Virus record (IMG/VR): IMGVR_UViG_3300009983_000002
DNA from: a virus
Taxonomy: Duplodnaviria; Heunggongvirae; Uroviricota; Caudoviricetes
Length of the DNA stretch: 64,000 nucleotides
Strand: one strand, 5' to 3'
This document shows positions 14,072-64,000 of the stretch, piece after piece. Each line of letters starts with the position of its first letter. Position 1 is the stretch's first letter. The position numbers and the translations under genes are program-made. Below the pieces are notes generated by a model. It was not told where the DNA came from, searched no databases, and saw only the letters and a list, made by a program, of their open reading frames with translations.

Positions 14072-14282
14072 CCGGGTCTCCTATCGTGTCCCAGAACCGA
14101 AAGATGTCGGCCTGGGTGTAGTTGGGCACAAAGTAGTCGGCGAGTTCGGGGTCCATCCCACAGTCCTCGCACCACGCGGGACCATAGATCATTCCCGCGC
14201 CCACGTCAACTGATTCCTGCCAGATGATGCCGCCGCAGCACCGGCAGGGCTCTAAGTCCTGGCGGCCCCGGATGTATGTCAC
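14034..14282 (-). CDS. Cys-rich small protein (putative Zn-binding)
   Basis: 82 aa; CRCCGG...CEDCGMD cysteine pairs. Confidence 0.4.
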   Translation of the reverse strand: MTYIRGRQDLEPCRCCGGIIWQESVDVGAGMIYGPAWCEDCGMDPELADYFVPNYTQADIFRFWDTIGDPDAVDHPEEILPF

Positions 14283-14737
14283 TTCTTGGCCTTCTCCGCC
14301 GCCCGGTCGTGCATGGTGATGCCGTCCAGGTGGTCAACCTCGTGGGCGATGCAGCGGGCGAGCAAGCCCGTGGCCCGCAGCTTCTGGCGGTTCCAGGCGC
14401 GGTCTGTGTAGGCCACGGTGAGGCTCACGGGCCTGCTGACGGGCACCTGATCCATTGGGTAGGAAAGGCAGCCCTCGGCCATCGTGGCGCGAATGGCGGC
14501 CTTGAATTCGATGATGGGGTTGATCATGAAGTGGAGGTCGCGGCCAACGGCGACGACGCACATGCGCTTCGCGATCCCCACCTGCGGCGCCGCGATCCCG
14601 ATTGCCATGCGAGCCTTCATGGTCTCATACATGGCCGTGAGTTGGGTCAGGGCTTCCTTGTCGCCGATTTCGACGGCAGGGGCGGGCGTGTGGAGGATGG
14701 GGTCGTTGTGGGGAACGAGCTTCAGTGAGAGTGCCAT
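14279..14737 (-). CDS. def: peptide deformylase
   Basis: Start at Met68 of track ORF (ATG 14737, SD CTGGAG). Three PDF motifs: GIAAPQVG, EGCLS, HEVDHLDG. Upstream 67 codons of the track ORF are low-complexity. Confidence 0.8.
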   Translation of the reverse strand: MALSLKLVPHNDPILHTPAPAVEIGDKEALTQLTAMYETMKARMAIGIAAPQVGIAKRMCVVAVGRDLHFMINPIIEFKAAIRATMAEGCLSYPMDQVPVSRPVSLTVAYTDRAWNRQKLRATGLLARCIAHEVDHLDGITMHDRAAEKAKK

Positions 14738-14748
14738 GTTGGCTCCAG

Positions 14749-14786
14749 AAAAGGGACGGGCCCGGGGAAGGAGATAACCCGGGCCC
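14749..14786 (-). terminator. candidate rho-independent terminator after rIIB-like gene
   Basis: Perfect 9-bp palindromic stem GGGCCCGGG/CCCGGGCCC (14758-14766 / 14778-14786) with 11-nt loop. On the minus-strand transcript it is followed by CCCUUUUCU. Confidence 0.45.
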
Positions 14787-14852
14787 GTCGTCGCGTCGGC
14801 GGAGGAAGGAGATGACTCCGCTTCGCTAGCGGGGATTATCAGGCCCCCGATT

Positions 14853-16418
14853 TCAGCCCCGGATTTCCTTGATCCAGCCCCGCAGGGTGGATTCAGAGAT
14901 GCCGGAGATACGTTGGCCGCCGCGATAGCCGTGTTCATCCACGATCTTCGTCACTTCGTCAGCGGTGAATTGGCGACCGTCCTTGGTCTTGAAGACCAGA
15001 GCGGTCTCGACGGTGTCAACGGCGTCCTCTTGGGAGTCGCGGCGCAGCCAGAATTCGAGGATCGCACGCGGCTCTTCCGCGAGTTCGACCCCAGCTTCAA
15101 GCTGGTCGTGATGGGGCTCCCAGTATTCGTCGCCCTGGACAGTCGAGACCCACTCGAAGGCGTAGAGCAGGCCGCGAGCGCGCTTGCGGAACGAGAGGCT
15201 GGTGTCCAGCGCACGCTCCAGGTCGGCACGCTTCAGGTCGCCCGGGACATCGCCGTAGAGTTCCAGGCGCTCTTCTTCCGTGAGTTCGGTGCGAGCGTCT
15301 TCGGCGTCGGCCTCCGGCGCCGCAGTGGCGGCAGCGGCTTCGGCGCGTTCGACTTGCGCGATCCAGAATTCGAGGACCGGCAGGGCGTCGTCGGGCTCAA
15401 CCTCGTTGTTGAGGCTGGTGTCGGCGTCGTCCCAGTAGCTCCAGCCCTGGATCGTGTCTTCCCAGTCGAATGCCGCTTGCAGCGCATCGAGACGGTCGCC
15501 GTTGTCGTTCGTGGAGTCCACGACGATGCGGGCTTGGTCGATGTCGAAGCCTTTCGGCACCGGGCCGTATTCCGCGAGCTTGCGGTCGATTTCTTCCTGG
15601 GTGTCGCCGTCGCCATCTTCGAGCGTGCGGCGGTAGTAGTCTTCGCTGGCCGTGGCGACGCCGCCGAAGTAGGACTTCGCTTCGTCTTCCGGCACTTCGC
15701 CAACGACTTCATACGTCCACGCCCGGCCCTTCGCGTTGTTGTAGTCGCTGGGGATCGAGACCACGTCGGCGGGGTTGATCTTCACGATCACCACGCGACC
15801 TTGGCCGCCGTGATAGTGGTCGAGATACGAGTAGGAGCAGAAGTGGAGGCCCCGCGAGCAGGTGGCGTTGCGGTTTGGGTCCACGTCTTCGCGGCGCATC
15901 GACGGCTTCTCGCCGATCTTGTTCGACACGACTTCGCCGCCGTAGCCACGGTGGAACGAAGTGTAGTCGTCCGCGACCTTCTTGAAGGCCAGGATGTCGC
16001 CGTCGTCGGTGAGCACGAATTGGCCGCTTTCGAGGAAGAGGTCGATTTCCTGGCGGGCCTTCACAGACGGGTTCTGTTCGCGCTTCGCCAGATAGTTGGC
16101 GAGGGCGTCGATGCTGTAGCCGCCCTTGAGCAACGTCAGCACTTGCGTGACGTAGACGCCTTCGATGGCGATGCCGTCGAAGCGGACTTCGCTGTCGCCG
16201 ACCTGGACGCGGCCAAAGCTGGCGCGCGTGATGAAGCCCGGGAGGTCCGCGAGATCGCGGATCAGATCGAGGTTGTAATCCTTGGCCTTCGCGCCGCGCT
16301 GGAGTTCGGCCTTCAGGGCGTCGAAGTTCGGATGGCTGTTGTCGATGGCGCGGGGGCGACCGTCGAGAAGCAAGTTAATGCTTCGGGGGGTGATGGTTAC
16401 TGCGAGGGTAAGTGACAT
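14853..16418 (-). CDS. large hypothetical protein, possible rIIB-like
   Basis: Start at Met93 of track ORF (ATG 16418, SD GAAGGAG 5 nt upstream; upstream codons are S/T/R junk). 521 aa, acidic. Lies immediately downstream of the GHKL-ATPase (rIIA-like) gene, as in T4 rIIA-rIIB. No motif confirmation. Confidence 0.3.
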   Translation of the reverse strand: MSLTLAVTITPRSINLLLDGRPRAIDNSHPNFDALKAELQRGAKAKDYNLDLIRDLADLPGFITRASFGRVQVGDSEVRFDGIAIEGVYVTQVLTLLKGGYSIDALANYLAKREQNPSVKARQEIDLFLESGQFVLTDDGDILAFKKVADDYTSFHRGYGGEVVSNKIGEKPSMRREDVDPNRNATCSRGLHFCSYSYLDHYHGGQGRVVIVKINPADVVSIPSDYNNAKGRAWTYEVVGEVPEDEAKSYFGGVATASEDYYRRTLEDGDGDTQEEIDRKLAEYGPVPKGFDIDQARIVVDSTNDNGDRLDALQAAFDWEDTIQGWSYWDDADTSLNNEVEPDDALPVLEFWIAQVERAEAAAATAAPEADAEDARTELTEEERLELYGDVPGDLKRADLERALDTSLSFRKRARGLLYAFEWVSTVQGDEYWEPHHDQLEAGVELAEEPRAILEFWLRRDSQEDAVDTVETALVFKTKDGRQFTADEVTKIVDEHGYRGGQRISGISESTLRGWIKEIRG

Positions 16419-20698: not shown

Positions 20699-21118
20699 AT
20701 GACTACGCCCACCGCCTTCCAGATGATGATCGCTGAACGCATTCTCAGCGAGCCCTTTCCGCGTCCCGGGCAGGATATGTCCAACTCGGAGAAGTGGGCT
20801 TTCGTTCACGCCGTCCTCGACGACAGTGACGACGAAGATTTGGACCCGGAGACCCCGTGGACCCCAACGCTCAACATCTTCGAAGGGCTCGACTGGCAGG
20901 CGGTCTACGACGAGTGGACGGACGAAGACCTCTTCGCCGCCGTCCTCTTCGCCGACCTCCTGAACGATGTCTACTTCGCGATCTTCACGCAAGGCGATGG
21001 AAGCGAGGCCGATCACCTGAACTATCAGACGAGCTTCGTCTGGTGGAAGAAGCTGAAGGACAAGCACGACTCTGATCAGGGCCACGGCCCGTTCAATCAC
21101 AAGGGATGGCTACATTGA
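20699..21118 (+). CDS. hypothetical acidic protein
   Basis: 139 aa, excellent GC3 bias, Asp/Glu-rich. Confidence 0.5.
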   Translation: MTTPTAFQMMIAERILSEPFPRPGQDMSNSEKWAFVHAVLDDSDDEDLDPETPWTPTLNIFEGLDWQAVYDEWTDEDLFAAVLFADLLNDVYFAIFTQGDGSEADHLNYQTSFVWWKKLKDKHDSDQGHGPFNHKGWLH

Positions 21119-21744
21119 AAACGAAGAGAGCGAAAATCCTCGACGACACGCAGTTTCGCGAAATCCTGGGCCGCTTGGGCGAAGCCCAGCATCCAGAACG
21201 CGACCGCGTTATCTTCATCCTCTCCTTCAAGGCCGGGCTGCGCTCGCAAGAAATTGCGGGGCTCGACTGGGAAGACGTGACGGACGCCAAGGGCAACATC
21301 GGGGCCCCGGCCCCTGGCTACGACTCCCGTGGCCGCCAAGTCAACGTGCCGTCGCTCTTCATCCCCGGCGACATCGCGAAGAAAGGCCGTGAGCGCTCCG
21401 TGGCGCTTCACCCAGACCTGATCAAGGCCCTGCGGGCCCTCCAGGCCGTCAGCGAAAAGACGGGCCCCAAGGACCCTGTAATCACGGGAGAGGCGGGGCA
21501 GCGCCTGACCCCTAACTACCTCGCCCAGTTCTTCCTCCGGCGCTTCCGCAAGTTCGGGATGCAGGGCGCTTCCTCTCACTCTGGCCGCCGCACGTTCATC
21601 ACCAAGGCCGCCCAGATGTCGCGTGAAAGCGAAGGCGTCAGCCTCCGCGACGTGCAGCAATGGGCGGGGCACGCCTTCCTCTCGACGACAGAGGCCTACA
21701 TCGAGCCCAGCCCCAGCGCTCACGCCCTGATCTCGCGGCTATAA
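21106..21744 (+). CDS. tyrosine recombinase, catalytic domain only (short integrase-like)
   Basis: 212 aa; R in ILSFKAGLRSQE, HSGRRTFIT (H-x-x-R), GHAFLSTTEAYIE (His...Tyr nucleophile). This is the R..H-R-H..Y pentad order of phage integrase/XerD. No N-terminal core-binding domain. Confidence 0.65.
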   Translation: MATLKTKRAKILDDTQFREILGRLGEAQHPERDRVIFILSFKAGLRSQEIAGLDWEDVTDAKGNIGAPAPGYDSRGRQVNVPSLFIPGDIAKKGRERSVALHPDLIKALRALQAVSEKTGPKDPVITGEAGQRLTPNYLAQFFLRRFRKFGMQGASSHSGRRTFITKAAQMSRESEGVSLRDVQQWAGHAFLSTTEAYIEPSPSAHALISRL

Positions 21745-29002: not shown

Positions 29003-29297
29003 TGCTCCCGAACAAGAATTCGAGCACGCATTTCTCGACCAGTCGCAAAGCTTCATGAATGGCTTCGCCCTGGGCTCTCTGTGGGAGCAATTCGACCGTC
29101 ATGTGCCTGTCTTCTGCATCCTCCATCCTTCGTGTCTCACCGACGCCCTGAAGCTCGCCAGCTATTGCGGCTACGACATCAAGCACCGCGAGACCATCGA
29201 CACCGGGACCGGCGAAGTCTGCATTGTATTCCACGGCGAGCCCGGCGCGGCACCTGCAAGGACAAAGCTGACCCTGATCCAAGGTGGCAGGAACTGA
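28995..29297 (+). CDS. hypothetical protein
   Basis: 100 aa; internal ATG of track ORF 28881..29297 overlapping upstream stop. Confidence 0.4.
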   Translation: MPDAPEQEFEHAFLDQSQSFMNGFALGSLWEQFDRHVPVFCILHPSCLTDALKLASYCGYDIKHRETIDTGTGEVCIVFHGEPGAAPARTKLTLIQGGRN

Positions 29298-29322
29298 ACA
29301 ACTTTCTCCCGGCGAGCGTGGT

Positions 29323-29760
29323 ATGGAAAAACTGATCCCCTACGAGCAGGCGTTGCGGCTGGCCCGCAAGTCTACAATCGACTCGCTGCTGCGCTACCTG
29401 TTGCAGCCCGACCTCCTTCCCCAAGGCCACGCCTTCTACGTCGTCGTCGTTCCCAAGGTCTCTGGCGTCATCCTCCCCGCGACGTGGATGGACAAAGACG
29501 AGGTCACTCTGGTGCTCCAGCATCAGTGGAAGAATGCCAGGATCGAGAACGAAATCCTTTTTATCGACCTCTGCTTCTCCGGCAAGTGGTCGCGCTGCGT
29601 GATTCCCTTCGAGTCCATTCAGACCTTCAGCGACTACCATGCAGGCTTCGCCGTCCACAAGCGCGTGACCTTCACGGAAACACCGCCGCCCCCGCCGGAG
29701 CCCGAACCCGCTCCCGACACCACGGTCGTGAGCCTCGATAGCTTCAGGAAAAAGACTTGA
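29323..29760 (+). CDS. hypothetical protein
   Basis: About 145 aa (MEKLIPYEQ...). Pro-rich C-terminus. Confidence 0.4.
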   Translation: MEKLIPYEQALRLARKSTIDSLLRYLLQPDLLPQGHAFYVVVVPKVSGVILPATWMDKDEVTLVLQHQWKNARIENEILFIDLCFSGKWSRCVIPFESIQTFSDYHAGFAVHKRVTFTETPPPPPEPEPAPDTTVVSLDSFRKKT

Positions 29761-41403: not shown

Positions 41404-41668
41404 ATTGGCGCTCCTTCACGCCACCCTCTGCAAATTCGACGCCGTAGCGTTCGGCGTAGATTTGACCGGCGAGTTCGCGCCCGGCGTCCGTGATGTCGAA
41501 GGTGGCGCGTGTCAGGAAGCCCCGACCGGCCAGGAATTGGGCGCATGTCATGAGGGCCGCGCCGTAGATCACGCCGCCCTTCTCCATCCCCGCAACGTCG
41601 AGAAGCACGTCCTCGTCATACTTCGTCATCTGCGCTTGCATCAGCGCTTCATGCAGCTTCTGCGACAT
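41390..41668 (-). CDS. hypothetical protein
   Basis: 92 aa. Confidence 0.4.
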   Translation of the reverse strand: MSQKLHEALMQAQMTKYDEDVLLDVAGMEKGGVIYGAALMTCAQFLAGRGFLTRATFDITDAGRELAGQIYAERYGVEFAEGGVKERQFEPS

Positions 41669-42911
41669 CGGTGTCCTGCTCTTTCTTGATCAAGATGCCT
41701 TGAATGGCGGCGGTGCTCATGGGGAGTTGCGGCGCGATCTCTTTGCGGAACGCTTCACGATCTCCCTCGGGGAAGAAACGGTCGAACATGCGGAGCGCGA
41801 TGTTGATGTCCTTGGCCTTGATATGGTCGAGGAAGTAGCTGCGGTCAACGCGGCCCGGACGCTTGAGTGCGGCGTCGAGTTTGTCGGCGTGGTTGCTGGT
41901 GATGAAGAGAATGCGGCCCTCTTGGGCGGCGATGCCGTCAATGGCGTTGAGGAAGCCCGACAACGTCAAGCCGCGTTCGGCCTTCTCTTTCTTGTCGCCC
42001 TTCTTCGCCGTCGCCGCTGCGGCGGTGCGTTCTTCGAGGATGGTGATGCTGTCGATGTCTTCGATCACGACGATCCCCGCGCCAGCGCTGTTGATCGCGT
42101 CCTGGAGGCTGTTGTCGTCGAGCAACGTCGCGGGGTTGATGATGTAGATCGGCTTGTTCAGAAGCGACGCGAGAGCGAAGATCAGCGAGGTCTTGCCGGT
42201 CCCCGGCGGGCCTTCGAGCATGTAGCCACGGCGCCACGGAATCCCACGGGCAGCATACCACTTGCGGCGGGTCAAGAACTTTTGGAGGTCGCGAACGATC
42301 TCGGCCTTCTGCGCCTCGTCCATGTAGATGGTGTCGAGTTCGCGCTTAGCGCGACGACCAGCGAGTTCGTAGTGTCCGCTCGACCAGAAGAAGACCGACA
42401 CCGTGTTTTGATCTTCGATGACAGACAGGGCTTCGTCCATGAGTCCGCGAAGCACAGATTGATCACGCCCCAGCGTCTGAATCGTGATCGTCTCGTTGCG
42501 CTTCACGAGCCACGAGTTGTCTTTGTCGCCTTGCTTCTCGATGTTGCGATGAATGAGAAAAGGGCGCTTGTTGTTGAAAATAATGTGGTGGCCTGGACCG
42601 GGGATCAGGCTGAACTTCTGTTGTTCGGTGGACTCGTCCCACTCGGAAGTCACGCTCAAGTTGCGGCTGCGGCGAGGGTTCATCTTCTTGCCCATCCACA
42701 CAGTGATGTAGCGATAGAAGTTGTCGTCGGCATAGACGGTCATCGTCAGCACGAATTGCGACTTGAACAAATTCCAGATATAGCCGGGGAGGGCGCGGCA
42801 CTGATAGCCGATGGCGCCGAGCACGGCGAGGACAAACATCCCGTGGCTGACTTCGCTGCCCAGGATCGCTTGAACTTGTTCTTGAACGAAGGGCAGGAGT
42901 TCGGGGATCAC
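41649..42911 (-). CDS. AAA+ ATPase, BCS1-like
   Basis: 420 aa; Walker A GPPGTGKTS, Walker B VVIEDIDS, arginine finger region KRPGRVD. Long N-terminal domain with one TM helix like BCS1. Confidence 0.75.
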   Translation of the reverse strand: MIPELLPFVQEQVQAILGSEVSHGMFVLAVLGAIGYQCRALPGYIWNLFKSQFVLTMTVYADDNFYRYITVWMGKKMNPRRSRNLSVTSEWDESTEQQKFSLIPGPGHHIIFNNKRPFLIHRNIEKQGDKDNSWLVKRNETITIQTLGRDQSVLRGLMDEALSVIEDQNTVSVFFWSSGHYELAGRRAKRELDTIYMDEAQKAEIVRDLQKFLTRRKWYAARGIPWRRGYMLEGPPGTGKTSLIFALASLLNKPIYIINPATLLDDNSLQDAINSAGAGIVVIEDIDSITILEERTAAAATAKKGDKKEKAERGLTLSGFLNAIDGIAAQEGRILFITSNHADKLDAALKRPGRVDRSYFLDHIKAKDINIALRMFDRFFPEGDREAFRKEIAPQLPMSTAAIQGILIKKEQDTDVAEAA

Positions 42912-56279: not shown

Positions 56280-56560
56280 CCGTGGGTCTCCCCAGTTGAG
56301 AACGGTTCGCATGTAACAATGTAACGCATGTAACGCAGAAAAAGTCGCGCTAAGGAAAATCAGGGGGTAAAAGCGAGTGACACCTTGGGTCTTCGTGTGT
56401 TAGGTGAGTTGGGTGAGGGAAAAAAGGTCAGAGGTCGAAAAGTTGGGTTACATCGGTTACATCGGTTACATCGTTGATTTTATTGGGATTTGACGGTTAC
56501 ATTTTGTTACATATTCTTCTTTTAAGTATAGTTAAATGTTACATTCTTGTGTTGGGTGTA
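56280..56560. repeat. iteron array: GTTACAT / ATGTAAC 7-mer repeated about 10 times in an AT-rich 280-bp stretch
   Basis: ATGTAAC at 56299, 56309, 56319. GTTACAT in GGTTACATCGGTTACATCGGTTACATCG (56441-56470), GGTTACATTTTGTTACAT (56484-56505), AATGTTACATT (56533). Local GC far below window mean. Confidence 0.7.
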
Positions 56561-56727
56561 TTGGGTTTCCGACCGTGCGTTGGGTATTCGGCCCTCTCCC
56601 AAGCCGAAATCGCTCATTCGTAACCGAGCGCCCCGCCGTGTAACCGAGATGGTTAACGGCTGGGTTACAGGTAAGGTTGACGAAAATGGTTGACATTAAC
56701 CATTTCCTGGAGTAGCGTTTAACCTTA

Positions 56728-57039
56728 ATGGAACAGTCCGTAATCAACGCTACAGTCGCTGCCGAATTGCTGCCCAGCATCATCCGCTGGTTCGGCGCCG
56801 AGCCCCTTGAAAGTCAGGACGCTCTTCGGACATCGCTGACCCTCTCTCTGGAACACTCAGCCGACGCCTATGAGCGGGCGAAGTTCCTCGACACCGTCCG
56901 GGGCTGGCCCGCCGATGCCAACCTCGTCACCATCCTCTCCCGCGCCGAAGGCATCGAGTCTCGCGTGCGGCAGGGCCCAATCTTGGCCGCCGCCGACAAT
57001 GTCCGCTCCATCTTCTCCGCCCGTCGTTTTGGGGATTGA
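56728..57039 (+). CDS. hypothetical protein (first gene of packaging operon)
   Basis: 103 aa. ATG immediately preceded by GTTTAACCTTAATG, which contains the reverse of the TTAAGGTTAA iteron. Confidence 0.45.
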   Translation: MEQSVINATVAAELLPSIIRWFGAEPLESQDALRTSLTLSLEHSADAYERAKFLDTVRGWPADANLVTILSRAEGIESRVRQGPILAAADNVRSIFSARRFGD

Positions 57040-57514
57040 CCCCGGGCTCGAAGGGGCCCTTGCCTTTCTCGATCCCAGCGGCGTCCTCGAAATCCACGAC
57101 ATGCCTACCTTCGCTGTGACCAAGTCGAAGCGGAAGGAGTATGTCGATCTGTGGGCCGTTCGCGATCTTGTTCGTGGCCGGGCCATCGTGCATACCTATC
57201 TCGAAGAAGTCGGCTCTTCACCACAAATGGGCGTCGTGTCAGCTTTCAGCTTCGGTGGCGGCTACTTCGGGGTCCAAGGCGTGATCATCAGTCACGACAT
57301 TGCCCTGACGACCGTGCGGCCCGGCATCTGGAAGACCCGGATGCGAGCCCCAGCCGACAAGAAACAAAGCGTCTCTCGCGCCAAAGCTTTGTTCCCGCAT
57401 TGTTCTGAACTGATCGGGAAGAAAGATGGCCGGGCCGAGGCCGCGATGCTCGCCCTATTTGGGGCCCTTGAATTGAACATGACGCCGGGGATCATTCGTC
57501 CATGCCAGTGCTAG
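57031..57514 (+). CDS. RuvC-like Holliday junction resolvase
   Basis: Real product begins near TTG 57031 inside track ORF 56870..57514. VLGIDPGLEGALAFLD matches the RuvC/YqgF N-terminal catalytic motif (GIDPG...G). About 160 aa. Confidence 0.6.
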
Positions 57515-58053
57515 CCAACGAACGCCAGGAGAAGGCGTGCCAACTCCGGGCCAAGGGCCTGACCCAAGCCGAAGCCTACGAGCTTGCCGGTTATACGCCG
57601 TCGCGTTCGAACGCCTCCGCCCTATTTTCACAGCCGGAGATCAAGCAGCGGCTGGCCGAAATCAAGGAAGAGCGGGAGAAGCTGGAAGCCCGGCGCCGCG
57701 CCGCCCACGAAGAGCTTCAGAAGACCCAAGGCGAACTTGGGATCGAAGACCTTGAGACCGAGAACCACGGCATCACCCGCGAGTGGATCATTCTCCAATA
57801 CAAGGAGGTCATCAAGAACGCTCAGCAGGAGGGCAAACACGCCGCAGCGGCGTCGGCGCTCCGCGAGGTCACGAAGCTTTTGGGGCTCGACAAACCACCG
57901 CCGGGCGACCCCAACAAGGCCGGAGCCCCGCAAGGCCCGGCACAACCCAAGCGTTCAACGTCGGGGCTCATGGATGCCCTGACCGAAGAGGCGGACGAAG
58001 AAGTCGCCCAAGAGGAAGCTGCCGAAGATGGCGATCATCCTACCACGGCCTGA
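57502..58053 (+). CDS. terminase small subunit
   Basis: 183 aa; N-terminal HTH QLRAKGLTQAEAYELAGYTP typical of TerS. Acidic C-terminus. Immediately upstream of TerL with 26-nt overlap. Confidence 0.6.
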   Translation: MPVLANERQEKACQLRAKGLTQAEAYELAGYTPSRSNASALFSQPEIKQRLAEIKEEREKLEARRRAAHEELQKTQGELGIEDLETENHGITREWIILQYKEVIKNAQQEGKHAAAASALREVTKLLGLDKPPPGDPNKAGAPQGPAQPKRSTSGLMDALTEEADEEVAQEEAAEDGDHPTTA

Positions 58054-59695
58054 GCGCGACCGTTATCGTAAAGCGATAAAGCGGGCCGAAGGCTATCTGG
58101 TCAAAATCGAAGACGCGATCCGCCGGGGGACCCCTCTCGGCGAGGACATCCGGCCCCATATCGAGCGGCTGACGCAGACCATTGACCCACATCAGGCCCA
58201 TCGGAGCCTCGAAGACGATCTGATCAGGATCAAAGTCGAGTATGAGCAAAAGCTGCTCGACGCCGCAGAGACTGACTTCTCTGCATTCTGCGAATACATG
58301 ACGCCGGAGGAGCCTCCGGCTGCTCACCATTATTTCCTCTGCGATAATCTTGAGGCCATGTCTCGGGGCGACATCCTGCGCCTCATGATTTCTATGCCGC
58401 CAGGACATGCCAAATCGACGTATTCCTCGCACAAATTCCCCGCATGGTGGATGGGCAAGAATTCACGCAAGCGCTTCATCCAGGCAGGCCACACCCAAAA
58501 CTTCTGCGAGAACCAACTCGGCAAGCCCGTGCGGAACATCGTCAAAGACGAGCGCTATGGGAAAGTTTTCCCAGACATCAGGATCAGTTCTGAATCTAAC
58601 GCGGCGGGCTTCTGGGCCCTCGTGACCGGCGGCAGCTATCTCACCAAAGGCGTCGGCCAAGGCATCGCGGGCTTCCGGGCCCACTGCGCCGGGGTCGATG
58701 ACCCGTTCGCCAGCCGCGAAGACGCTGAATCCGAGGTCATTCGCGAGAAGACTTTCAACTGGTTTAGCGCCGACTTCACAACGCGATTGCTCCCCCGGTG
58801 CCCCATGTATATTGTGGCAACACGGTGGCACCCCGACGACCTGTGCGCCAGGGTCGAGCAACTGAACAAAGACGGCAAGGGCTACCCCTGGACGATCATC
58901 AACCTCCCGGCCATCGCTGGGGCAAATGACCCTATGGGGCGTGCGCCGGGCGAAGCACTCTGGCCCGAGCTTTTTGATGTAGAATACTTGCTACATTTGA
59001 AGGCCACTCTCCCACCACGCGACTGGAATTCACTATACCAGGGGACCCCGACAAATGCTGAAGGGGGTATGGTTAATGGCGACAGCGTTCATCGTTACCA
59101 GGAGCGCCCGGTTAACCTTATCGACGAATATGGCCGGATTACGAAGTGGAACGTCAAGCGCCTGACGATCTCGGCGGACACGGCCAGCAAAGATCAGCAG
59201 CGGCACGACCCGACCGCGATTACCGTCTGGATCGAGACCGTTGATCGGCGCCATTACCTGATCGACGTGGTGGTCAAGCGCGTTCAGTTTAACGACCTCG
59301 TAACCTTAATCGAGGACACCTGCCGCCGCTGGCAGTTGGAGTATCCGGGCACCCCCACGGCCATCCTCGTCGAAGACAAGGGCTCGGGGACCCAGTATAT
59401 TCAAGCCCGGCAGCACCTTGCACCTGCGGTTGTGATCCCCATCGCCGTGACCAACGTCTCGAAGGAGTTCCGCTTCGACGGCGTGAGCCCGATGTTCACC
59501 ATCGGCGAAGTCCTGCTGCCTGAGCGGGCGATCTGGCTGCCCGACTACGAGAAGGAAATCTTCGAGTTCGACGGCAAGGGCACGGCCACCCACGACGACC
59601 AAGTCGATAGCACCAGCCAATACCTGTCCTGGGCCCGTCAAGGCCGTGGCCGGGGCTCGAAGAAGCTGAAGGGCACGGGCTACTCTCGCCGGTAA
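58028..59695 (+). CDS. terminase large subunit
   Basis: 555 aa; ATPase Walker A-like MPPGHAKST, Walker B/coupling YIVATRWHPDDL. C-terminal RNaseH-like nuclease with ISADTA...D and ATHDDQVDS acidic residues. Confidence 0.8.
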   Translation: MAIILPRPERDRYRKAIKRAEGYLVKIEDAIRRGTPLGEDIRPHIERLTQTIDPHQAHRSLEDDLIRIKVEYEQKLLDAAETDFSAFCEYMTPEEPPAAHHYFLCDNLEAMSRGDILRLMISMPPGHAKSTYSSHKFPAWWMGKNSRKRFIQAGHTQNFCENQLGKPVRNIVKDERYGKVFPDIRISSESNAAGFWALVTGGSYLTKGVGQGIAGFRAHCAGVDDPFASREDAESEVIREKTFNWFSADFTTRLLPRCPMYIVATRWHPDDLCARVEQLNKDGKGYPWTIINLPAIAGANDPMGRAPGEALWPELFDVEYLLHLKATLPPRDWNSLYQGTPTNAEGGMVNGDSVHRYQERPVNLIDEYGRITKWNVKRLTISADTASKDQQRHDPTAITVWIETVDRRHYLIDVVVKRVQFNDLVTLIEDTCRRWQLEYPGTPTAILVEDKGSGTQYIQARQHLAPAVVIPIAVTNVSKEFRFDGVSPMFTIGEVLLPERAIWLPDYEKEIFEFDGKGTATHDDQVDSTSQYLSWARQGRGRGSKKLKGTGYSRR

Positions 59696-59754
59696 GCTGT
59701 CATAAAAGACATGAATCGTGACACCTGCGAAAAAGCGTGTCTAATCAATGACAT

Positions 59755-59865
59755 CCGGGGACCCTGCGCTTTTTATGACAGGGACCCTAGCGTTTTATGA
59801 CAGGGCAGGGACCCTCGGGTTTTCGACCTGGGGCCGGTCGGGGACCCTGGGCTTTTCGGCATGGG
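59755..59865. repeat. four tandem imperfect about 24-bp repeats: GGGACCCT-N3-5-TTTT-N7
   Basis: GGGGACCCTGCGCTTTTTATGACA / GGGACCCTAGCGTTTTATGACA / GGGCAGGGACCCTCGGGTTTTCGACCT / GGGGACCCTGGGCTTTTCGGCATG. Confidence 0.7.
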
Positions 59866-60469
59866 CCGGGGCCTAAATCCTGGGCGGGAGGGGCCAGATA
59901 TGGCCCATTAAGGTTCAAAAACGGGGCTAATGGGCCATTTATGAGCCATTAGGCATGACCCAAAACAGGGTCAATTTCTGCGACTGACCCAATTCAGGTT
60001 CACACCCAATTTCACCCGATTGGCCGGTTTCAGCAGCCGGTGAAAGCCCGCCGTCCAGTGAAAATCGGCGCCGTCATCGTTTCTCGACCCAACTCACCTG
60101 CGACCCTCGATTTTGGACGCTCGTCATCGCTTTTGGACACCAAATGCTTGTGATGGCCCAGCAGAATAGGCTTGAAATGGCCCGGCCACGTCCTGCAAAT
60201 TTGCACGGAGCGGTGAAGGTTTTGCGCAGCGGCGATCTCGCGGTTTTCTCCAACGAGGCGACCTTAATGCGTCATATATGATGCCTTAAGTCGGTTAATG
60301 TCCTTTATATGCACCATAAACGACGTTTGTGACCTCAGTCACACTCGCCTACATGGTTAATTTGGGCTGCATAGCTCGACGTGGAGGCCTACGACCGTTT
60401 CTGACGTATGATCATGAGCGGCCTGACGCTTATCTGACGATTACCCCGCTGCCCGTCGCGATCTCGGGC

Positions 60470-60600
60470 TCGGCCAACTCTGAATCAATCGAATTTTGGC
60501 TCTGACTCTTTTCGATTTTGGCACTCTGAATCAATCGCTTTTTGGCGCGCGCCCACTCTGAATCTTTTCGTTTTTGGCACGAATCGATTCGATTTTGGTT
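60470..60600. repeat. 4-5 tandem about 26-bp repeats: CTCTGAATC-N6-ATTTTTGGC
   Basis: CTCTGAATCAATCGAATTTTGGC / TCTGACTCTTTTCGATTTTGGCA / CTCTGAATCAATCGCTTTTTGGCG / CTCTGAATCTTTTCGTTTTTGGCA / CGAATCGATTCGATTTTGG. Confidence 0.7.
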
Positions 60601-60609
60601 AATGTGAAT

Positions 60610-60900
60610 TTGCGTTAAGGTTAACCCAGGTTAAGGTTAACAGCCGTTAAGGTTAACGCGGCATTAAGGTTAACGCCCGGCGGCGGCCCGTTAAGGTTAA
60701 CGCCACACGCGGTTCCGTTAAGGTTGAAAATTAAGGTTAACCCGGGAGGCCGCCGCGTTAAGGTTAACGCAGGCCGGGAACGTGTTAAGGTTAACCGGGC
60801 GGGGCGCCGCGTTAACCCTAACCCAACGCAGGGCCGCGTTAACCCTAATGGATCACGCCGCCGCGTTAACCATGATGGGCGGCTGTGCCAAAATGAGGCG
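60610..60900. repeat. iteron array: 11 copies of TTAAGGTTAAC, then 3 copies of GCGTTAACC(C/A)T(A/G)A, with irregular GC-rich spacers
   Basis: Direct reading of 60613-60890. The core GTTAAC is palindromic. Track ORFs 60724..61011 and 60782..61129 are artefacts of this repeat. Confidence 0.8.
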
Positions 60901-61034
60901 GAGCATTGCGCCCCGCCTCCCTTTGAGCCCGTTAGCGAATTCGAGCAACCTAGCGGCCTTGGCTTGCGCCTCCCGCTCGGCGAGGGCCTTAGCGAGGGCG
61001 AGCCCCGCTAAGATTCCCTCTTTCGCTTGCGCGT

Positions 61035-61286
61035 TCACGCTGTCACCGTTCCGGCTGGCGCGTGCGCCAGCGTGGTCTCGGCGAAAAGAGTCAGGGCTTG
61101 CGCCGCCTTCTCATATTCGCCGCGCTTGAACTTCAAGCCCGTGATGCTTTCCGCAGTCTTAAGCATCGCGGTGGGCGTCCAAGCCCGATTGGGTTTCATG
61201 CCGGTTTTGGCATAAAGACGCAGCCCCGACGCCAGCGCCGTAGCGCGGAAAATCGAGACTCCAGCAGGTCCGTTAAACGTGGTCAT
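61035..61286 (-). CDS. small protein with hairpin-TIR (83 aa)
   Basis: Start at the Met encoded by ...ATCGGAAGGAGAAACCGATATG (translated SEGETDM inside track ORF 61035..61355). Confidence 0.45.
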   Translation of the reverse strand: MTTFNGPAGVSIFRATALASGLRLYAKTGMKPNRAWTPTAMLKTAESITGLKFKRGEYEKAAQALTLFAETTLAHAPAGTVTA

Positions 61287-61405
61287 ATCGGTTTCTCCTT
61301 CCGATGCGCCGACAATAGCACGCGCCGCGCTGGCGTCAAGCGAAAAAGTTGGCAACGCTTTGTTAAGACCTTGGCTCTATAGTCGGCGCATCAAAGGAGT
61401 CGGCT

Positions 61406-61603
61406 ATGCCTGATTTAATTCGCTGGCGCTACTACATGCGGGAAGCGCAAAAGTCCGTTGACATCGCGAGCGCCGCGAAGGCGCGAGGCGATAAGCCGGG
61501 CGCCCGCCGCTGGCTAGAGCAAGCATCAAGCGAGCTTGACCAAGCGGCCTTTTGGCGCTCTAATGAAGCGCCGCAAATCGAGCCGCAAGGATTCATGTTA
61601 TGA
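61406..61603 (+). CDS. small protein (65 aa)
   Basis: SD AAAGGAGTCGGCT upstream. Confidence 0.4.
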   Translation: MPDLIRWRYYMREAQKSVDIASAAKARGDKPGARRWLEQASSELDQAAFWRSNEAPQIEPQGFML

Positions 61604-61815
61604 ACGCTTTCGCAAAGCGCCCTATTGAGTTTCCGCCGCGCCCCATGACGCAAGGCCGCTTTAGAATCGAAACGATTCTATTGGCGCGAGCAATGGCCGC
61701 GAGCATGAAGCGAGACGGCGCGAAAGGCGCCGCGCTTATGCGCCGCGTCGCATGGGACAAGTTACGCGACGCGCAAGCCTGGAAACGCGGGCTTGACATC
61801 GCGGGCGCCGCCTGA
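61600..61815 (+). CDS. small basic protein (71 aa)
   Basis: ATGA coupling. Confidence 0.4.
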   Translation: MNAFAKRPIEFPPRPMTQGRFRIETILLARAMAASMKRDGAKGAALMRRVAWDKLRDAQAWKRGLDIAGAA

Positions 61816-61846
61816 TAGTCTCGCTAAATCGGAAGGAGAAACCGAT

Positions 61847-62185
61847 ATGCGAATCGCTCAAATCGTAATGCCTAAGCAAGGCAACGCGGGCGAAGACTTG
61901 CAAGCCGTGCATTACAGCTTGCGCCGCGAGCTTGCCAAAAGATTCGGCGGATATACCGCGCTAGAGTCGCATGGCGGATGGATTGACGAGTCCGGGAAGC
62001 TTTACGATGAGCCCGGAATCACCTATCAATGCGCCTGCGATGATTGCGAAGCAAACCGCGAAGCGCTGCGCCAGATTGCAAAAATTCATGGCCGCGCCGC
62101 CGCTCAATTAGCGGTTTTCGTAACGTATCCGTGCGGAACCGCTGAAATTATTGACATCTCGCATCACATGGAGAAACGCGCATGA
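61847..62185 (+). CDS. small protein with hairpin-TIR (112 aa)
   Basis: ATG preceded by ATCGGAAGGAGAAACCGAT. CxCDDCE cysteines. Confidence 0.45.
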   Translation: MRIAQIVMPKQGNAGEDLQAVHYSLRRELAKRFGGYTALESHGGWIDESGKLYDEPGITYQCACDDCEANREALRQIAKIHGRAAAQLAVFVTYPCGTAEIIDISHHMEKRA

Positions 62186-62463
62186 CCACGCAACCACGCT
62201 GCGAAACTTCCAAGCTAACCCAACGCGCGGCGCACGCTAAAGACGCTGGGAAGCTTGCGCCGTTGCAGCATCGGCATTTTGCGACAATCGCCACAATCAT
62301 CAAAGCGCTCGGCGCCGATGATTTTAGCAACGTGCGCGACCATTGCGTCAGCCTCGCCGACGCTGAAAATCTCCGCGCCGACATCGCGGAACACTTCGCG
62401 GCGAAACTCGCGAAGACTAACGATAAATTCGACCGCGCCCGCTTTCTTGCCGCTTGCAAATAG
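62182..62463 (+). CDS. small protein (93 aa)
   Basis: ATGA coupling. Confidence 0.4.
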   Translation: MTTQPRCETSKLTQRAAHAKDAGKLAPLQHRHFATIATIIKALGADDFSNVRDHCVSLADAENLRADIAEHFAAKLAKTNDKFDRARFLAACK

Positions 62464-62504
62464 CGGCAAAGCCTGCTAGGCTCACTAAATCGAAGGAGTC
62501 GCAA

Positions 62505-62735
62505 ATGCCTAGACCATTGTCAGAGATTGCACGCGAGATTCGCGGCGACTGGAAAAACGTCAACTTCGCGGCCAAGCCCTACCTTGACGCGATGGGCGAG
62601 CTAAACGCGATTACCGACTCTTACTATCAGGACTCGGCTAAATCCGTTGTGCTCTATTTCCTGAGCAACGCGAGCGCATGGCGCGGCGAAAACGCCAAGC
62701 GCATCAAAGCTGAGCTTAAGGCGCTGGCGAAGTAG
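62505..62735 (+). CDS. small protein (76 aa)
   Basis: ATG preceded by AAATCGAAGGAGTCGCAA. Confidence 0.45.
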   Translation: MPRPLSEIAREIRGDWKNVNFAAKPYLDAMGELNAITDSYYQDSAKSVVLYFLSNASAWRGENAKRIKAELKALAK

Positions 62736-62753
62736 GAGTCGAACATGCCGAAC

Positions 62754-62914
62754 CTTGACGATATTATCGCCTGGGAAAATGGCGAGCTTGACGCGGAAGC
62801 GGAAGCCGAATTTTTTCAAGGCATGATCAACACGGGAGTCGTGTGGACTCTTCAAGGCATGTATGGCCGCCGCGCCTTCGCCTTGATCGAAGCGGGAGTC
62901 TGCACTCGTGCTTA
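62754..62914 (+). CDS. small protein (about 53 aa)
   Basis: SD AGGAGTCGAAC. Confidence 0.3.
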
Positions 62915-63144
62915 AGGCCTTCTCAACCTTTTGCGCGCTAGCCGCGCTGGCGTTGTGTCTTTTCGTGATAGACCGCGCCAGCGCGCCACGCTTCGCCCTT
63001 GTGAGCTATTACGCAAGCGGCGGGGCGCTGGAAAGCGAGACGCTGGACTCTGGCCTAAGCGCCAGCGATTGCGCCTTTGCCCTGGAGCAAGGCCGAGTCG
63101 TCGCGGCATCGGCTGAAATTCTGCTAACGTGCGAGCGCGACTAA
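62908..63144 (+). CDS. small secreted/membrane protein (78 aa, GTG start)
   Basis: N-terminal hydrophobic segment AFSTFCALAALALCLFVI. Confidence 0.35.
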   Translation: MLKAFSTFCALAALALCLFVIDRASAPRFALVSYYASGGALESETLDSGLSASDCAFALEQGRVVAASAEILLTCERD

Positions 63145-63281
63145 TGCGAGGCCTTCCCGCAATCCTGCTAGTTTTGTTGGCGGGCTTGCTGGCGCCGCTT
63201 TTCTTGGGGCGCGATTGAAAAAAGCGCTTGCAATGCGCCGCGCTTGTGCTATTCTCCTTTGCATCGGAAGGAGAAACCGAT

Positions 63282-63518
63282 ATGAACGGCTATCAAATCC
63301 AAGCGAAACTTGACGAAGCGCTGCAAGCGGGCCGCGTTGCCTCGCGCGCTCATTACATTGTCAAGGCCGCGATTCGTCACGCTCAAATGACTGGCCGCCC
63401 CGTTCGCGATGTCGCGGACCTTGAACGCGCGATTAACGAATATCGCACAAGCGGCAAGAAAATTTATCCCCATTTCAGCGAAGATTTTGCTTGCGCGCGT
63501 CGCGAGCTTGTGCAATAG
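63282..63518 (+). CDS. small protein with hairpin-TIR (78 aa)
   Basis: ATG preceded by ATCGGAAGGAGAAACCGAT. Confidence 0.45.
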   Translation: MNGYQIQAKLDEALQAGRVASRAHYIVKAAIRHAQMTGRPVRDVADLERAINEYRTSGKKIYPHFSEDFACARRELVQ

Positions 63519-63544
63519 TCTTTTCATCGGAAGGAGAAACCGAC

Positions 63545-63697
63545 ATGAGACCGATCCACGAAGTTATCCGCGCCAGCGCCCAGACCGCTCAAACCGAGCG
63601 CGCCAACTGGGAAGGCCGCACGGCGCAAGCCAAGTTTGAAGGCGCTGCCGCCGCTGATCGTCAAGCGGTCGCCTTTGGCAAGCGCAAGGCTCGCTAA
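63545..63697 (+). CDS. small protein with hairpin-TIR (50 aa)
   Basis: ATG preceded by ATCGGAAGGAGAAACCGAC. Confidence 0.35.
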   Translation: MRPIHEVIRASAQTAQTERANWEGRTAQAKFEGAAAADRQAVAFGKRKAR

Positions 63698-63876: not shown

Positions 63877-64000
63877 ACGCGAAAAGGCCGCCAAGCTAGC
63901 CGCACGCGAGCTAGAGCGGCGCGAGAAACAAAAGCAACGCGAGCCCCGCGACTAACTCCCGCGCTAGGCTCAACTCCCGGGAAGGCCGCGCCGCAAGGTG

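What the first reader, a model, noticed from the sequence alone, without database searches (positions are those of the whole stretch)
59696..60905. 1.2-kb repeat-dense non-coding region right after terminase: likely genome terminus, pac/cos and/or origin
Immediately after the TerL stop there is no portal gene. Instead there is about 1.2 kb with no credible ORF.

Its contents, in order:
- TGTCATAAAAG and CACCTGCG boxes.
- Four tandem GGGACCCT-(N)-TTTT repeats, two of which end in TTTTATGACA.
- An inverted repeat TGGCCCATTA / TAATGGGCCA, and four ACCCAA boxes.
- Five tandem CTCTGAATC-N6-ATTTTTGGC repeats.
- An array of 11 TTAAGGTTAAC plus 3 GCGTTAACC iterons.

Downstream, GC drops and gene style changes to tiny early-like ORFs. 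This architecture (terminase at one end, multi-family iterons, then early genes) is what a packaging initiation site, terminal repeat boundary or replication origin looks like. Several functions may be superimposed here.
Basis: seen in the sequence. Interest (0 to 1): 0.85.

Follow-up and report, generated by a model that had tools for sequence, protein, structure and literature searches.

The report
Terminal-repeat leader with CtrA boxes
The repeat-dense 1.2 kb after the terminase gene is the conserved non-coding leader at the start of the long terminal repeat of a phiCbK/Lacusarx-type phage of Alphaproteobacteria, holding terminus-linked GGGACCC repeats next to an array of probable binding sites for the host cell-cycle regulator CtrA.

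Summary
Window 59696-60852 is non-coding and holds several repeat families, each far beyond chance.

This is not a one-off. TerL belongs to the phiCbK/Lacusarx/RXM clade of long-terminal-repeat siphophages. About 35 distinct relatives carry the same order after terL:
- GGGACCC(T)/T-tract repeats
- 22-24-bp T-tract tandem repeats
- a TTA(A/G)GGTTAAC array

The TTAAGGTTAAC iterons are best read as host CtrA boxes:
- The same iteron pair with the same spacer lies in the phage Delta probe that CtrA~P shifts (Mascolo 2022).
- Delta-type phages have an unrelated terminase.

The physical left end is probably not in the iteron array. In phiCbK, CcrSC and RXM it falls in one conserved Arg codon of terL, which corresponds to window ~58941. 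In Colossus/CcrPW, and probably Lacusarx, it falls within 0-100 bp after terL.

A possibly new point: the right ends of phiCbK, CcrSC, CcrPW and RXM lie 37-39 nt after a lone GGGACCCAA. This makes GGGACCC the better candidate for a terminase signal.

An origin function is unsupported. Overall this is a new member of a known kind, of moderate interest.

The parts
57502..58053 (+). terS, the small terminase. Its N-terminal helix-turn-helix (HTH), aa 1-57, is the part conserved across the clade.
   Evidence: Matches Pfam Terminase_2 and PHROG TerS families. It is 27-31% identical to phiCbK and Colossus TerS, concentrated at the N-terminus. It matches a solved small terminase over aa 1-57.
58028..59695 (+). 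terL, the large terminase, of the phiCbK/Lacusarx/RXM long-DTR clade.
   Evidence: PHROG_38 match at 9e-104. tblastn identities: 54% to Mwe-JY26, 46% to DSS3P8, 44% to Lacusarx and RXM, 36% to phiCbK-like phages.
58940..58942 (+). Predicted candidate for the left physical end and DTR start (inferred). This is the Arg-305 codon of the motif M-G-R|A-P-G-E-A-L-W.
   Evidence: The mapped or annotated left ends of phiCbK, L023, L082, CcrSC and RXM all fall in this same TerL alignment column. The terminus data come from PMC3556154 and PMC8953757. The window sequence CGTGCGCCGGGCGAAGCACTCTGGCC closely matches RXM.
59698..59729 (+). TGTCATAAAAG ... TGACA inverted pair, followed by a CACCTGCG box.
   Evidence: Conserved in L005. 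TGTCATAAAA boxes are also present after terL in L088. The same boxes recur at other intergenic regions of the window.
59756..59885 (+). Module A: four GGGACCCT-N4-T-tract units (59758, 59781, 59808, 59841) plus a conserved tail.
   Evidence: Cluster is beyond chance in shuffles. It is about 93% identical to L005, spacers included. Homologous arrays of 3-6 units lie after terL in about 30 clade members including phiCbK, Colossus, Lacusarx and RXM.
59895..60002 (.). Inverted repeat TGGCCCATTA/TAATGGGCCA, the TGACCC-N6-GGGTCA palindrome (59956-59973) and a degenerate second copy (59985-60002).
   Evidence: Found. The palindrome type is conserved in L005 and in Lacusarx.
60211..60357 (.). Block about 95% conserved with L005. 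It contains palindromes 60263-60290 and TGTGACCTCAGTCACA (60328-60343). Function unknown.
   Evidence: Alignment. It is absent from the 67-69% relatives L006 and L012. No Rfam family and no sigma-70 consensus promoter match.
60478..60598 (+). Module B: five tandem 22-24-bp units, CTCTGAnTC-N7-TTTTGG(C). Each carries a GANTC (CcrM-type) site and a T-tract.
   Evidence: There are 6 GANTC in 130 bp against 0.28 expected. Positionally equivalent T-tract tandem repeats of different sequence occur in most relatives.
60613..60878 (.). Module C: 9 direct (C)GTTAAGGTTAAC(G) iterons (8 exact) and 3 inverted GCGTTAACC units. Spacing is 16/16/17, then 27 bp.
   Evidence: Iterons are kept and spacers diverged in L005. 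The iteron pair with its spacer is identical to part of the CtrA-shifted Delta probe. The array is conserved at +0.9 to +1.7 kb after terL in most of the clade, and up to about +2.4 kb in CcrBL9 and CcrSC.
60853..61286 (-). Leftward small genes orf83 (61035-61286) and orf61 (60853-61038), with a hairpin plus T-run at 60889-60925. These are the first genes of the repeat and converge on terL.
   Evidence: (I25). The same layout, with minus-strand first genes after the array, is seen in Colossus.

Best explanation
The region is the conserved non-coding leader at the left end of the long direct terminal repeat (DTR) of a virulent, Lacusarx/phiCbK-type siphophage of an alphaproteobacterium. It is a composite protein-binding platform, not one element.

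- **Module A** (GGGACCCT/T-tract repeats, 59756-59885) is a terminus-associated signal. It is most likely bound by the clade-conserved helix-turn-helix (HTH) of TerS to mark where packaging starts. This step is inferred.
- **Module B** (phased T-tract 22-24-bp repeats, 60478-60598) probably bends the DNA or binds a lineage-specific protein. This is inferred and weak.
- **Module C** (12 TTAAGGTTAAC-type iterons, 60613-60878) is a cluster of CtrA boxes. Phosphorylated host CtrA, which is abundant in piliated or flagellated cells, would occupy them and couple early repeat-region activity to the host cell cycle. This is the published 'lytic deferment' idea. Binding has been shown only for near-identical DNA of another phage.
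- **The DNA end itself** is probably either inside terL at codon 305 (about 58941) or within the first 200 bp or so after terL. The whole region would then be duplicated at both virion ends.
For: **Clade membership and synteny**
- The order ruvC-terS-terL, then a gap, then small genes is shared with relatives.

**Mapped terminal repeats in relatives**
- phiCbK: terminal ligation places the left end in terL codon 652. Colossus: the left end is just downstream of terL.
- Lacusarx: a 10.5-kb zone of 2x coverage starts after the terminase genes.
- RXM: the first 10,992 bp are the DTR, and its boundary lies inside terL.
- The phiCbK, CcrSC and RXM boundaries fall in the same TerL alignment column.

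**Conserved architecture**
- A scan for iteron pairs alone returned 64 viral loci, about 45 of them with a clade TerL nearby.
- The order A, then B, then C is seen in about 35 distinct phages.
- Colossus has the same layout in the first 1.9 kb of its repeat.
- Against L005 (TerL 85% identical) the motifs are kept while the iteron spacers diverge.

**CtrA**
- Mascolo 2022 reports CtrA-site clusters in the DTRs of the phiCbK/Lacusarx/Cp1R7A-A1 cluster and in phage gap regions, with EMSA and reporter evidence.
- Their CtrA-shifted probe contains ATTAACCTTAATGCCGCGTTAACCTTAC. The window minus strand at 60647-60674 reads GTTAACCTTAATGCCGCGTTAACCTTAAC.
- Iteron spacings across loci put the inner TTAA tetramers 11 bp apart (TTAA-N7-TTAA) or 21 bp apart.
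- Delta-type phages have the iterons but an unrelated TerL and no GGGACCC array.

**GGGACCC and termini**
- The right ends of phiCbK, L045, CcrSC, CcrPW and RXM lie 37-39 nt after a lone GGGACCCAA.
- Lacusarx has a homologous motif about 85 nt before its record end.
- The Colossus and PW left ends abut a GGGACCC.
- The TerS N-terminal HTH is the conserved part of TerS.
Against: - No reads or virion DNA are available, so neither the repeat nor the end is shown for this phage.
- The window does not reach the predicted right boundary. Similar motifs in L005, JY26 and L019 lie about 5 kb after terL.
- Only one canonical TTAA-N7-TTAA(C) site exists here, at 60652-60668. Most iterons are 27 bp apart with an internal TTAA-N2-TTAAC. 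No one has tested CtrA on such a unit alone.
- In this phage the array lies between convergent transcription units, so it is not an obvious promoter operator.
- The distance from the mapped left ends to the GGGACCC array varies from 0.35 to 1.9 kb. Some clade members lack the motif or carry a variant. GGGACCC-like boxes also lie next to promoter-like hexamers. It could therefore be a transcription-factor site.
- The termini of CcrSC and CcrPW may have been assigned by analogy with phiCbK, so they may not be independent evidence.
- The host is unknown.
Confidence: 0.6

Rival explanations
1. The iterons are operators for a phage-encoded DNA-binding protein conserved in these phages, such as an early-gene regulator, rather than for host CtrA. 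Any CtrA binding would then be incidental.
For: - The 11-12-bp unit, including its invariant GG, is more specific than TTAA-N7-TTAA.
- In several relatives, such as L009, L041 and L02, single iterons recur every 0.5-1 kb upstream of small repeat-region genes, like a phage regulon.
- Only one canonical CtrA site is present here.
Against: - The same iteron is used by Delta-type phages, whose TerL shows no detectable similarity to this one. The paper reports independent evolution in several lineages.
- CtrA~P shifts a probe built from these units.
- No recognisable regulator was found among the scanned window ORFs.
- In bacterial genomes, iteron pairs are over-represented in GC-rich Alphaproteobacteria: 26 of 82 hits.
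Confidence: 0.2
2. The region is, or contains, the phage replication origin. This could be an iteron type, or a CtrA-gated origin in the manner of the Caulobacter chromosomal origin.
For: - It has multiple iteron families, phased T-tracts and a cluster of GANTC sites.
- CtrA boxes and GANTC sites also characterise the Caulobacter origin (own knowledge).
Against: - There is no DnaA box within 1 mismatch, and the best 40-nt AT content is only 67.5%.
- No initiator gene is adjacent. The polymerase, helicase and primase genes lie 25-50 kb away.
- GANTC is absent from the equivalent repeats of many relatives.
- A more origin-like spot exists at 56310-56545: 82.5% AT flanked by nine GTTACAT repeats.
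Confidence: 0.12
3. The TTAAGGTTAAC array is the TerS binding (pac) site.
For: It lies within 1-1.7 kb of terL in most clade members.
Against: - It is also present in phages with an unrelated terminase, and dispersed through repeat regions far from any end.
- The mapped ends are associated with GGGACCC and, at the phiCbK-type and CcrPW right ends, with a single GTTAACCA half-site. They are not associated with the array.
Confidence: 0.08
4. The region is a centromere-like (parS/parC) site for plasmid-like carriage during pseudolysogeny.
For: Arrays of short iterons in direct and inverted orientation resemble type II centromeres (own knowledge).
Against: - No partition genes are nearby.
- There is no match in 72,556 plasmids.
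- Relatives are described as virulent.
Confidence: 0.03

Closest known systems
Long direct terminal repeats of phiCbK-like Caulobacter phages (Gill et al. 2012, PMC3556154)
   Same: - The TerL and TerS are homologous, and terS-terL sit at the right end of the unique region.
- The repeat starts in or just after terL.
- After terL comes the same GGGACCC array and the same TTA(A/G)GGTTAAC array. Colossus also has about 1.9 kb of non-coding DNA followed by minus-strand first genes.
   Different: - TerL is only 36% identical and has no intein.
- The genome is likely much smaller.
- The repeat and its ends have not been measured here.
- The relatives closest to the window suggest a repeat of about 5.5-6.4 kb rather than 10-17 kb.
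CtrA-binding-site clusters in phage gap and DTR regions, 'lytic deferment' (Mascolo et al. 2022, PMC9437464)
   Same: - A TTAA-rich intergenic cluster of about 1.2-1.3 kb next to the packaging genes.
- The same GTTAACCTTAA iteron, and even the same spacer, as in the CtrA-shifted Delta probe.
- Lacusarx and the phiCbK cluster are explicitly included in that study.
   Different: - Only one canonical TTAA-N7-TTAA site is present here, against 12 in Delta.
- The array lies downstream of convergent genes, not in a divergent promoter region.
- The paper does not describe the GGGACCC or T-tract modules.
Sphingobium phage Lacusarx and Citromicrobium phage RXM
   Same: - TerL is 44% identical, with the same ruvC-terS-terL synteny.
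- A 0.8-1.56-kb gap after terL holds the same three modules in the same order.
- Both have repeats of 10.5-11 kb with 2x coverage.
   Different: - Their module B units are CTATGGATCGAGGCCATTTT-like and carry no GANTC.
- Both also carry extra proximal TTAACCAT/AAGGTTAAC sites right after terL.
T7 concatemer-junction repeats, the T5 terminal-repeat non-coding region, and lambda cosB / SPP1 pacL-pacR (own knowledge, not tested here)
   Same: Arrays of short repeats flank terminal repeats or cleavage sites and are bound by small terminase or accessory factors.
   Different: There is no sequence or protein homology to these systems. The mechanism for long-DTR phages of this clade is unknown.

Membership tests
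Start of the long direct terminal repeat of phiCbK/Lacusarx-type phages | TerL and TerS belong to the clade, with ruvC-terS-terL followed by non-coding DNA and small genes instead of a portal gene | tested here: met
Start of the long direct terminal repeat of phiCbK/Lacusarx-type phages | Conserved post-terL motif architecture: GGGACCC array, then T-tract tandem repeats, then TTA(A/G)GGTTAAC array | tested here: met
Start of the long direct terminal repeat of phiCbK/Lacusarx-type phages | Twofold read coverage, a defined physical end, and the sequence present at both virion ends | not testable with these tools
   No reads are available. The predicted right boundary lies beyond position 64000.
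CtrA-box cluster of alphaproteobacterial phages (Mascolo 2022) | Strong local concentration of TTAA-based CtrA sites or half-sites in intergenic DTR or gap DNA | tested here: met
   The region holds 26 of the window's 80 TTAA (P about 1e-25) and 14 of its 25 GTTAACC. The DNA is non-coding.
CtrA-box cluster of alphaproteobacterial phages (Mascolo 2022) | Canonical full sites TTAA-N7-TTAA(C) | tested here: inconclusive
   There is one exact site (60652-60668) plus two N6 variants. The remaining iterons are half-site-like units 27 bp apart.
CtrA-box cluster of alphaproteobacterial phages (Mascolo 2022) | Binding by phosphorylated CtrA, and CtrA-dependent expression | not testable with these tools
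   The evidence is indirect only: near-identity to part of the shifted Delta probe.
CtrA-box cluster of alphaproteobacterial phages (Mascolo 2022) | The host is a CtrA-bearing alphaproteobacterium | tested here: inconclusive
   The host is unknown. Most related isolates infect Alphaproteobacteria, although the closest, Mwe-JY26, is recorded on Microcystis. No prophage copy was found in 185,579 genomes using the window TerL.
Iteron-type or DnaA-dependent replication origin | DnaA boxes, a strongly AT-rich unwinding element, and an adjacent initiator gene | tested here: not met
   No DnaA box within 1 mismatch, maximum AT content 67.5%, and no initiator gene nearby.
pac/cos-type terminase recognition site | A repeated motif tied to the terminase lineage and lying at a fixed distance from mapped cleavage sites | tested here: inconclusive
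   - For GGGACCC: the right ends of four lineages lie 37-39 nt after a lone copy, but the distance from the left ends to the array varies.
- The motif is missing in some members.
- The pattern alone is not specific in viral contigs.

The most novel reading that the evidence does not exclude
GGGACCC(T) followed by a T-tract is the terminase (TerS) recognition element of a whole, widespread clade of long-DTR phages of Alphaproteobacteria.

- A lone copy would set the right-end cut 37-39 nt downstream.
- A 3-6-copy array just after terL would nucleate initiation.
- The left cut would be made at a conserved Arg codon inside terL itself.
- The adjoining CtrA-box array would place packaging or early expression under host cell-cycle control.

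I found none of these three regularities in the searchable literature.
Probability: 0.35. Interest if true: 0.65.

Novelty: new member of a known kind. Interest (0 to 1): 0.5.

Why it matters
How phages with long, exact terminal repeats (phiCbK, T5 and SPO1 types) choose and cut their ends is still largely unknown.

This locus and its roughly 35 relatives offer three things:
- A conserved, testable set of cis elements beside the terminase genes.
- A simple rule (GGGACCCAA plus 37-39 nt) that could predict the right ends of uncultivated relatives from sequence alone.
- A natural place to test whether host CtrA gates phage development, extending the 'lytic deferment' signature to many metagenomic phages.

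For genome annotation, it warns that circular-looking assemblies of this clade hide a terminal repeat that begins in or right after terL.

Tried and rejected
- **Plasmid and prophage origin.** There is no DNA match in plasmids and no TerL relative in 185,579 bacterial genomes by the degenerate-pattern scan. The later iteron scan did turn up four genome contigs with a clade TerL.
- **Structured RNA.** No Rfam family and no tRNA.
- **Promoters.** The E. coli-type scan found none inside the region. A regex built from the phage's own early promoters found only one weak hit, at 60574.
- **Hidden genes.** In-region ORFs lack a GC3 signal and frame-consistent conservation.
- **CcrM/GcrA involvement.** GANTC enrichment is real here but absent from the equivalent repeats of many relatives. 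No GcrA, CtrA or CcrM homolog was seen in about 50 scanned ORFs.
- **Contig ends as proxies for physical ends.** These were mostly uninformative. There are three suggestive cases: L037 and L048 end at the same base, 61 nt after their last GGGACCC, and L053 starts 18 nt after the predicted terL cut.
- **Reciprocal scans.** GGGACCC x3 and a 14-nt right-end pattern were too unspecific, returning collagen-like repeats and random hits.
- **Shared cut-site sequence.** No sequence shared between the phiCbK and Colossus ends was found in the window.
- **Conserved Rhodobacterales chromosomal locus.** It holds two CGTTAAGGTTAACG sites 21 bp apart but could not be assigned a function.
Full report
**1. 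What is there**

TerS (57502-58053) and TerL (58028-59695) are confirmed. They are preceded by a RuvC-like resolvase gene (56870-57514).

After the terL stop there is no portal gene. Positions 59696-60852 carry no ORF with a coding GC3 signal or frame-consistent conservation. The finding's right edge (60905) intrudes into a small conserved minus-strand gene, orf61 (60853-61038). That gene follows orf83 (61035-61286) and contains a hairpin plus T-run.

- GGGACCCT x4.
- GANTC-N7-TTTTGG x5.
- TTAAGGTTAAC with up to 1 mismatch: 12 against 0.16 expected.
- 26 of the window's 80 TTAA tetramers lie here.

The iteron count is 8 exact plus 1 degenerate direct copy, and 3 inverted GCGTTAACC units, not 11 plus 3. 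The GC drop downstream is marginal.

**2. What phage this is**

The window encodes a T7-type DNA polymerase, helicases, a primase, rIIA/rIIB, RNA and DNA ligases, ThyX and a dNMP kinase. This is the replication and miscellaneous half of a large virulent phage.

TerL identities to known phages:
- 54% to Mwe-JY26
- 46% to the DSS3P8 group
- 44% to Sphingobium phage Lacusarx and Citromicrobium phage RXM
- 36% to phiCbK-like Caulobacter phages

ruvC-terS-terL synteny is shared with these relatives.

These relatives have long direct terminal repeats (DTRs):
- phiCbK: 10.3 kb, with ends mapped by terminal ligation.
- Colossus: about 17 kb.
- Lacusarx: 10.5 kb at 2x coverage, starting after the terminase genes.
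- RXM: 10,992 bp.

**3. The region is a conserved architecture, not an oddity**

The nearest relative, L005 (TerL 85% identical), has the same region. Its motifs are kept, its iteron spacers have diverged, and the GGGACCC block and a 145-nt block (window 60211-60357) are almost identical.

Scanning 2.9 million viral contigs only for two TTAAGGTTAAC within 3-20 nt returned 64 loci. About 45 of them carry a clade TerL (34-85% identical) within a few kb.

Oriented on terL, about 35 distinct phages show this order after the stop codon:
- 3-6 GGGACCC(T)-N3-5-T-tract units at a period of about 24-30 bp.
- 22-24-bp T-tract tandem repeats of lineage-specific sequence.
- A TTA(A/G)GGTTAAC array at about +0.9 to +1.7 kb, and up to about +2.4 kb in CcrBL9 and CcrSC.

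These include phiCbK, CcrSC, BL9, Lacusarx and RXM. Colossus shows the identical layout in the first 1.93 kb of its repeat. It ends, as here, against minus-strand first genes.

**4. Where the end is**

- The phiCbK left end (record 205424) and the RXM boundary (record 10992) map to the same TerL alignment column. This is the Arg codon of D-x-L-G-R|x-x-G-E-x-L-W.
- The records of CcrSC and of two other phiCbK-like phages also start in that codon.
- The window homolog is codon 305 at 58940-58942, with a sequence close to RXM. It lies 755 bp upstream of the terL stop.
- In Colossus the end is 95 bp after terL. In CcrPW it is about 45 bp after terL, next to a GGGACCC.
- Lacusarx's 10.5 kb fits a start just after terL.

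So the end of this phage is probably at about 58941 or in the first 200 bp or so of the region. I cannot decide between the two. In either case the iteron array lies 0.7-2 kb inside the repeat.

**5. GGGACCC is terminus-linked**

- The right ends of phiCbK, a second phiCbK-like genome, CcrSC, CcrPW and RXM lie 37-39 nt downstream of a solitary GGGACCCAA(A)G and end in a C-run.
- Lacusarx has a homologous GGGTTCCC-N5-GGGTATCCCC...CGCCCCTG about 85 nt before its record end.
- L005, Mwe-JY26 and L019 have similar motifs about 5 kb after terL. The window's own right boundary should therefore lie just beyond 64000.
- The N-terminal HTH is the conserved part of TerS across the clade. TerS is therefore the leading candidate reader of GGGACCC.

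Caveats:
- Some termini may have been assigned by analogy with phiCbK.
- The distance from the array to the left end varies.
- Some members lack the motif or carry a variant of it.
- GGGACCC x3 alone is not specific.

**6. The iterons are most likely CtrA boxes**

Mascolo et al. 2022 showed that CtrA-site clusters mark the DTR and gap regions of alphaproteobacterial phages, including the phiCbK/Lacusarx cluster. They also showed that CtrA~P binds and regulates such sites.

Their shifted Delta probe contains the same iteron pair with the same spacer as window 60647-60674. Delta-type phages carry GTTAACCTTAAC arrays, but their TerL has no detectable similarity to this one and they have no GGGACCC array. 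This argues for a host factor rather than TerS.

Across loci, iteron spacings of 17, 18 (-+), 27 and 26 (+-) place the inner TTAA tetramers 11 or 21 bp apart.

Weak points:
- Only one canonical TTAA-N7-TTAAC site is present here.
- The array is not upstream of a gene in this phage.
- A phage-encoded binder is not excluded.

**7. Origin and other readings**

There are no DnaA boxes, only modest AT-richness and no initiator gene nearby. A more origin-like spot lies at 56.3-56.5 kb. There is no plasmid similarity and no Rfam family.

**8. Verdict**

This is a real, conserved cis-regulatory and packaging leader of a long terminal repeat. It is a new member of a known kind. The GGGACCC-terminus rule and the conserved terL cut codon appear undescribed in the searchable literature. 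Both need read-level and biochemical tests.

Noticed in passing
window 56310-56730: The 670-bp divergent intergenic region upstream of ruvC-terS-terL holds nine GTTACAT repeats (0 of 100 shuffles reach 9). They flank the most AT-rich 40-mer of the window (82.5% AT at 56497). TTAACCAT, AAGGTTGAC and TTTAACCTTAA sites follow at 56640-56730. This is a better candidate for an origin or for CtrA-controlled late promoters.
   Followed up: partly
window 18688/18715, 32947/32960, 55389, 59722, 60095: The motif CACCTGCG(TTGGG), which is the reverse complement of CCCAACGCAGGTG, recurs at strand-switch intergenic regions, often next to TGTCATAAAA. L005 carries GGGACCCAACGCAGGTG near its putative right repeat end.
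   Followed up: partly
L180 (phiCbK 10287), L058 (CcrSC end), L183 (CcrPW end), L181 (RXM pos 1), L303 (Lacusarx end): Right terminal-repeat ends lie 37-39 nt after a lone GGGACCCAA(A)G. Lacusarx has a homologous variant about 85 nt before its record end. This could serve as a sequence rule for predicting ends in this clade.
   Followed up: partly
window 61336-63545: Each small repeat-region gene has its own host-type promoter (TTGACA-N16-17-GCTAnnnT-like) and a near-identical leader, GGAAGGAGAAACCGA(T/C)ATG (61833, 63268, 63530). None of the ten products has a known function. One matches DUF7417.
   Followed up: partly
window 29284-29760, 14279-14938, 21106-21744, 41649-42911: The phage encodes an SspB-like ClpXP adaptor, a peptide deformylase, a short tyrosine-recombinase-domain protein and a BCS1-like AAA ATPase.
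   Followed up: no
L323 5557-5588 and six other Rhodobacterales genomes (L335, L341, L351, L360, L370, L378): A conserved chromosomal intergenic locus carries two CGTTAAGGTTAACG sites 20-21 bp apart, downstream of a conserved GGGGTATTTG...GATGAA element. Pfam did not identify the flanking genes.
   Followed up: partly
L368 (Erythrobacter sp. 3.68-Mb chromosome), L329 (Hoeflea 1.04-Mb contig), L374 (Rhizobium rosettiformans 8.3-kb contig), L347: Clade TerL genes with adjacent iterons occur inside bacterial genome assemblies. This hints at integrated or carried copies, or mis-binning, of phages that are described as virulent.
   Followed up: no
L037 and L048 (contig ends); L053 (contig start): Two independent IMG/VR contigs end at the same base, 61 nt after the last GGGACCC of their post-terL array. 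A third contig, from a relative with 64% identical TerL, starts 18 nt after the predicted terL-internal cut codon.
   Followed up: partly
L029 about +560 to +640 after terL: One clade member lacks GGGACCC and carries three GGGGTGGT(C/A) units in the equivalent position, after an inserted gene. This may be a co-varying recognition variant.
   Followed up: no
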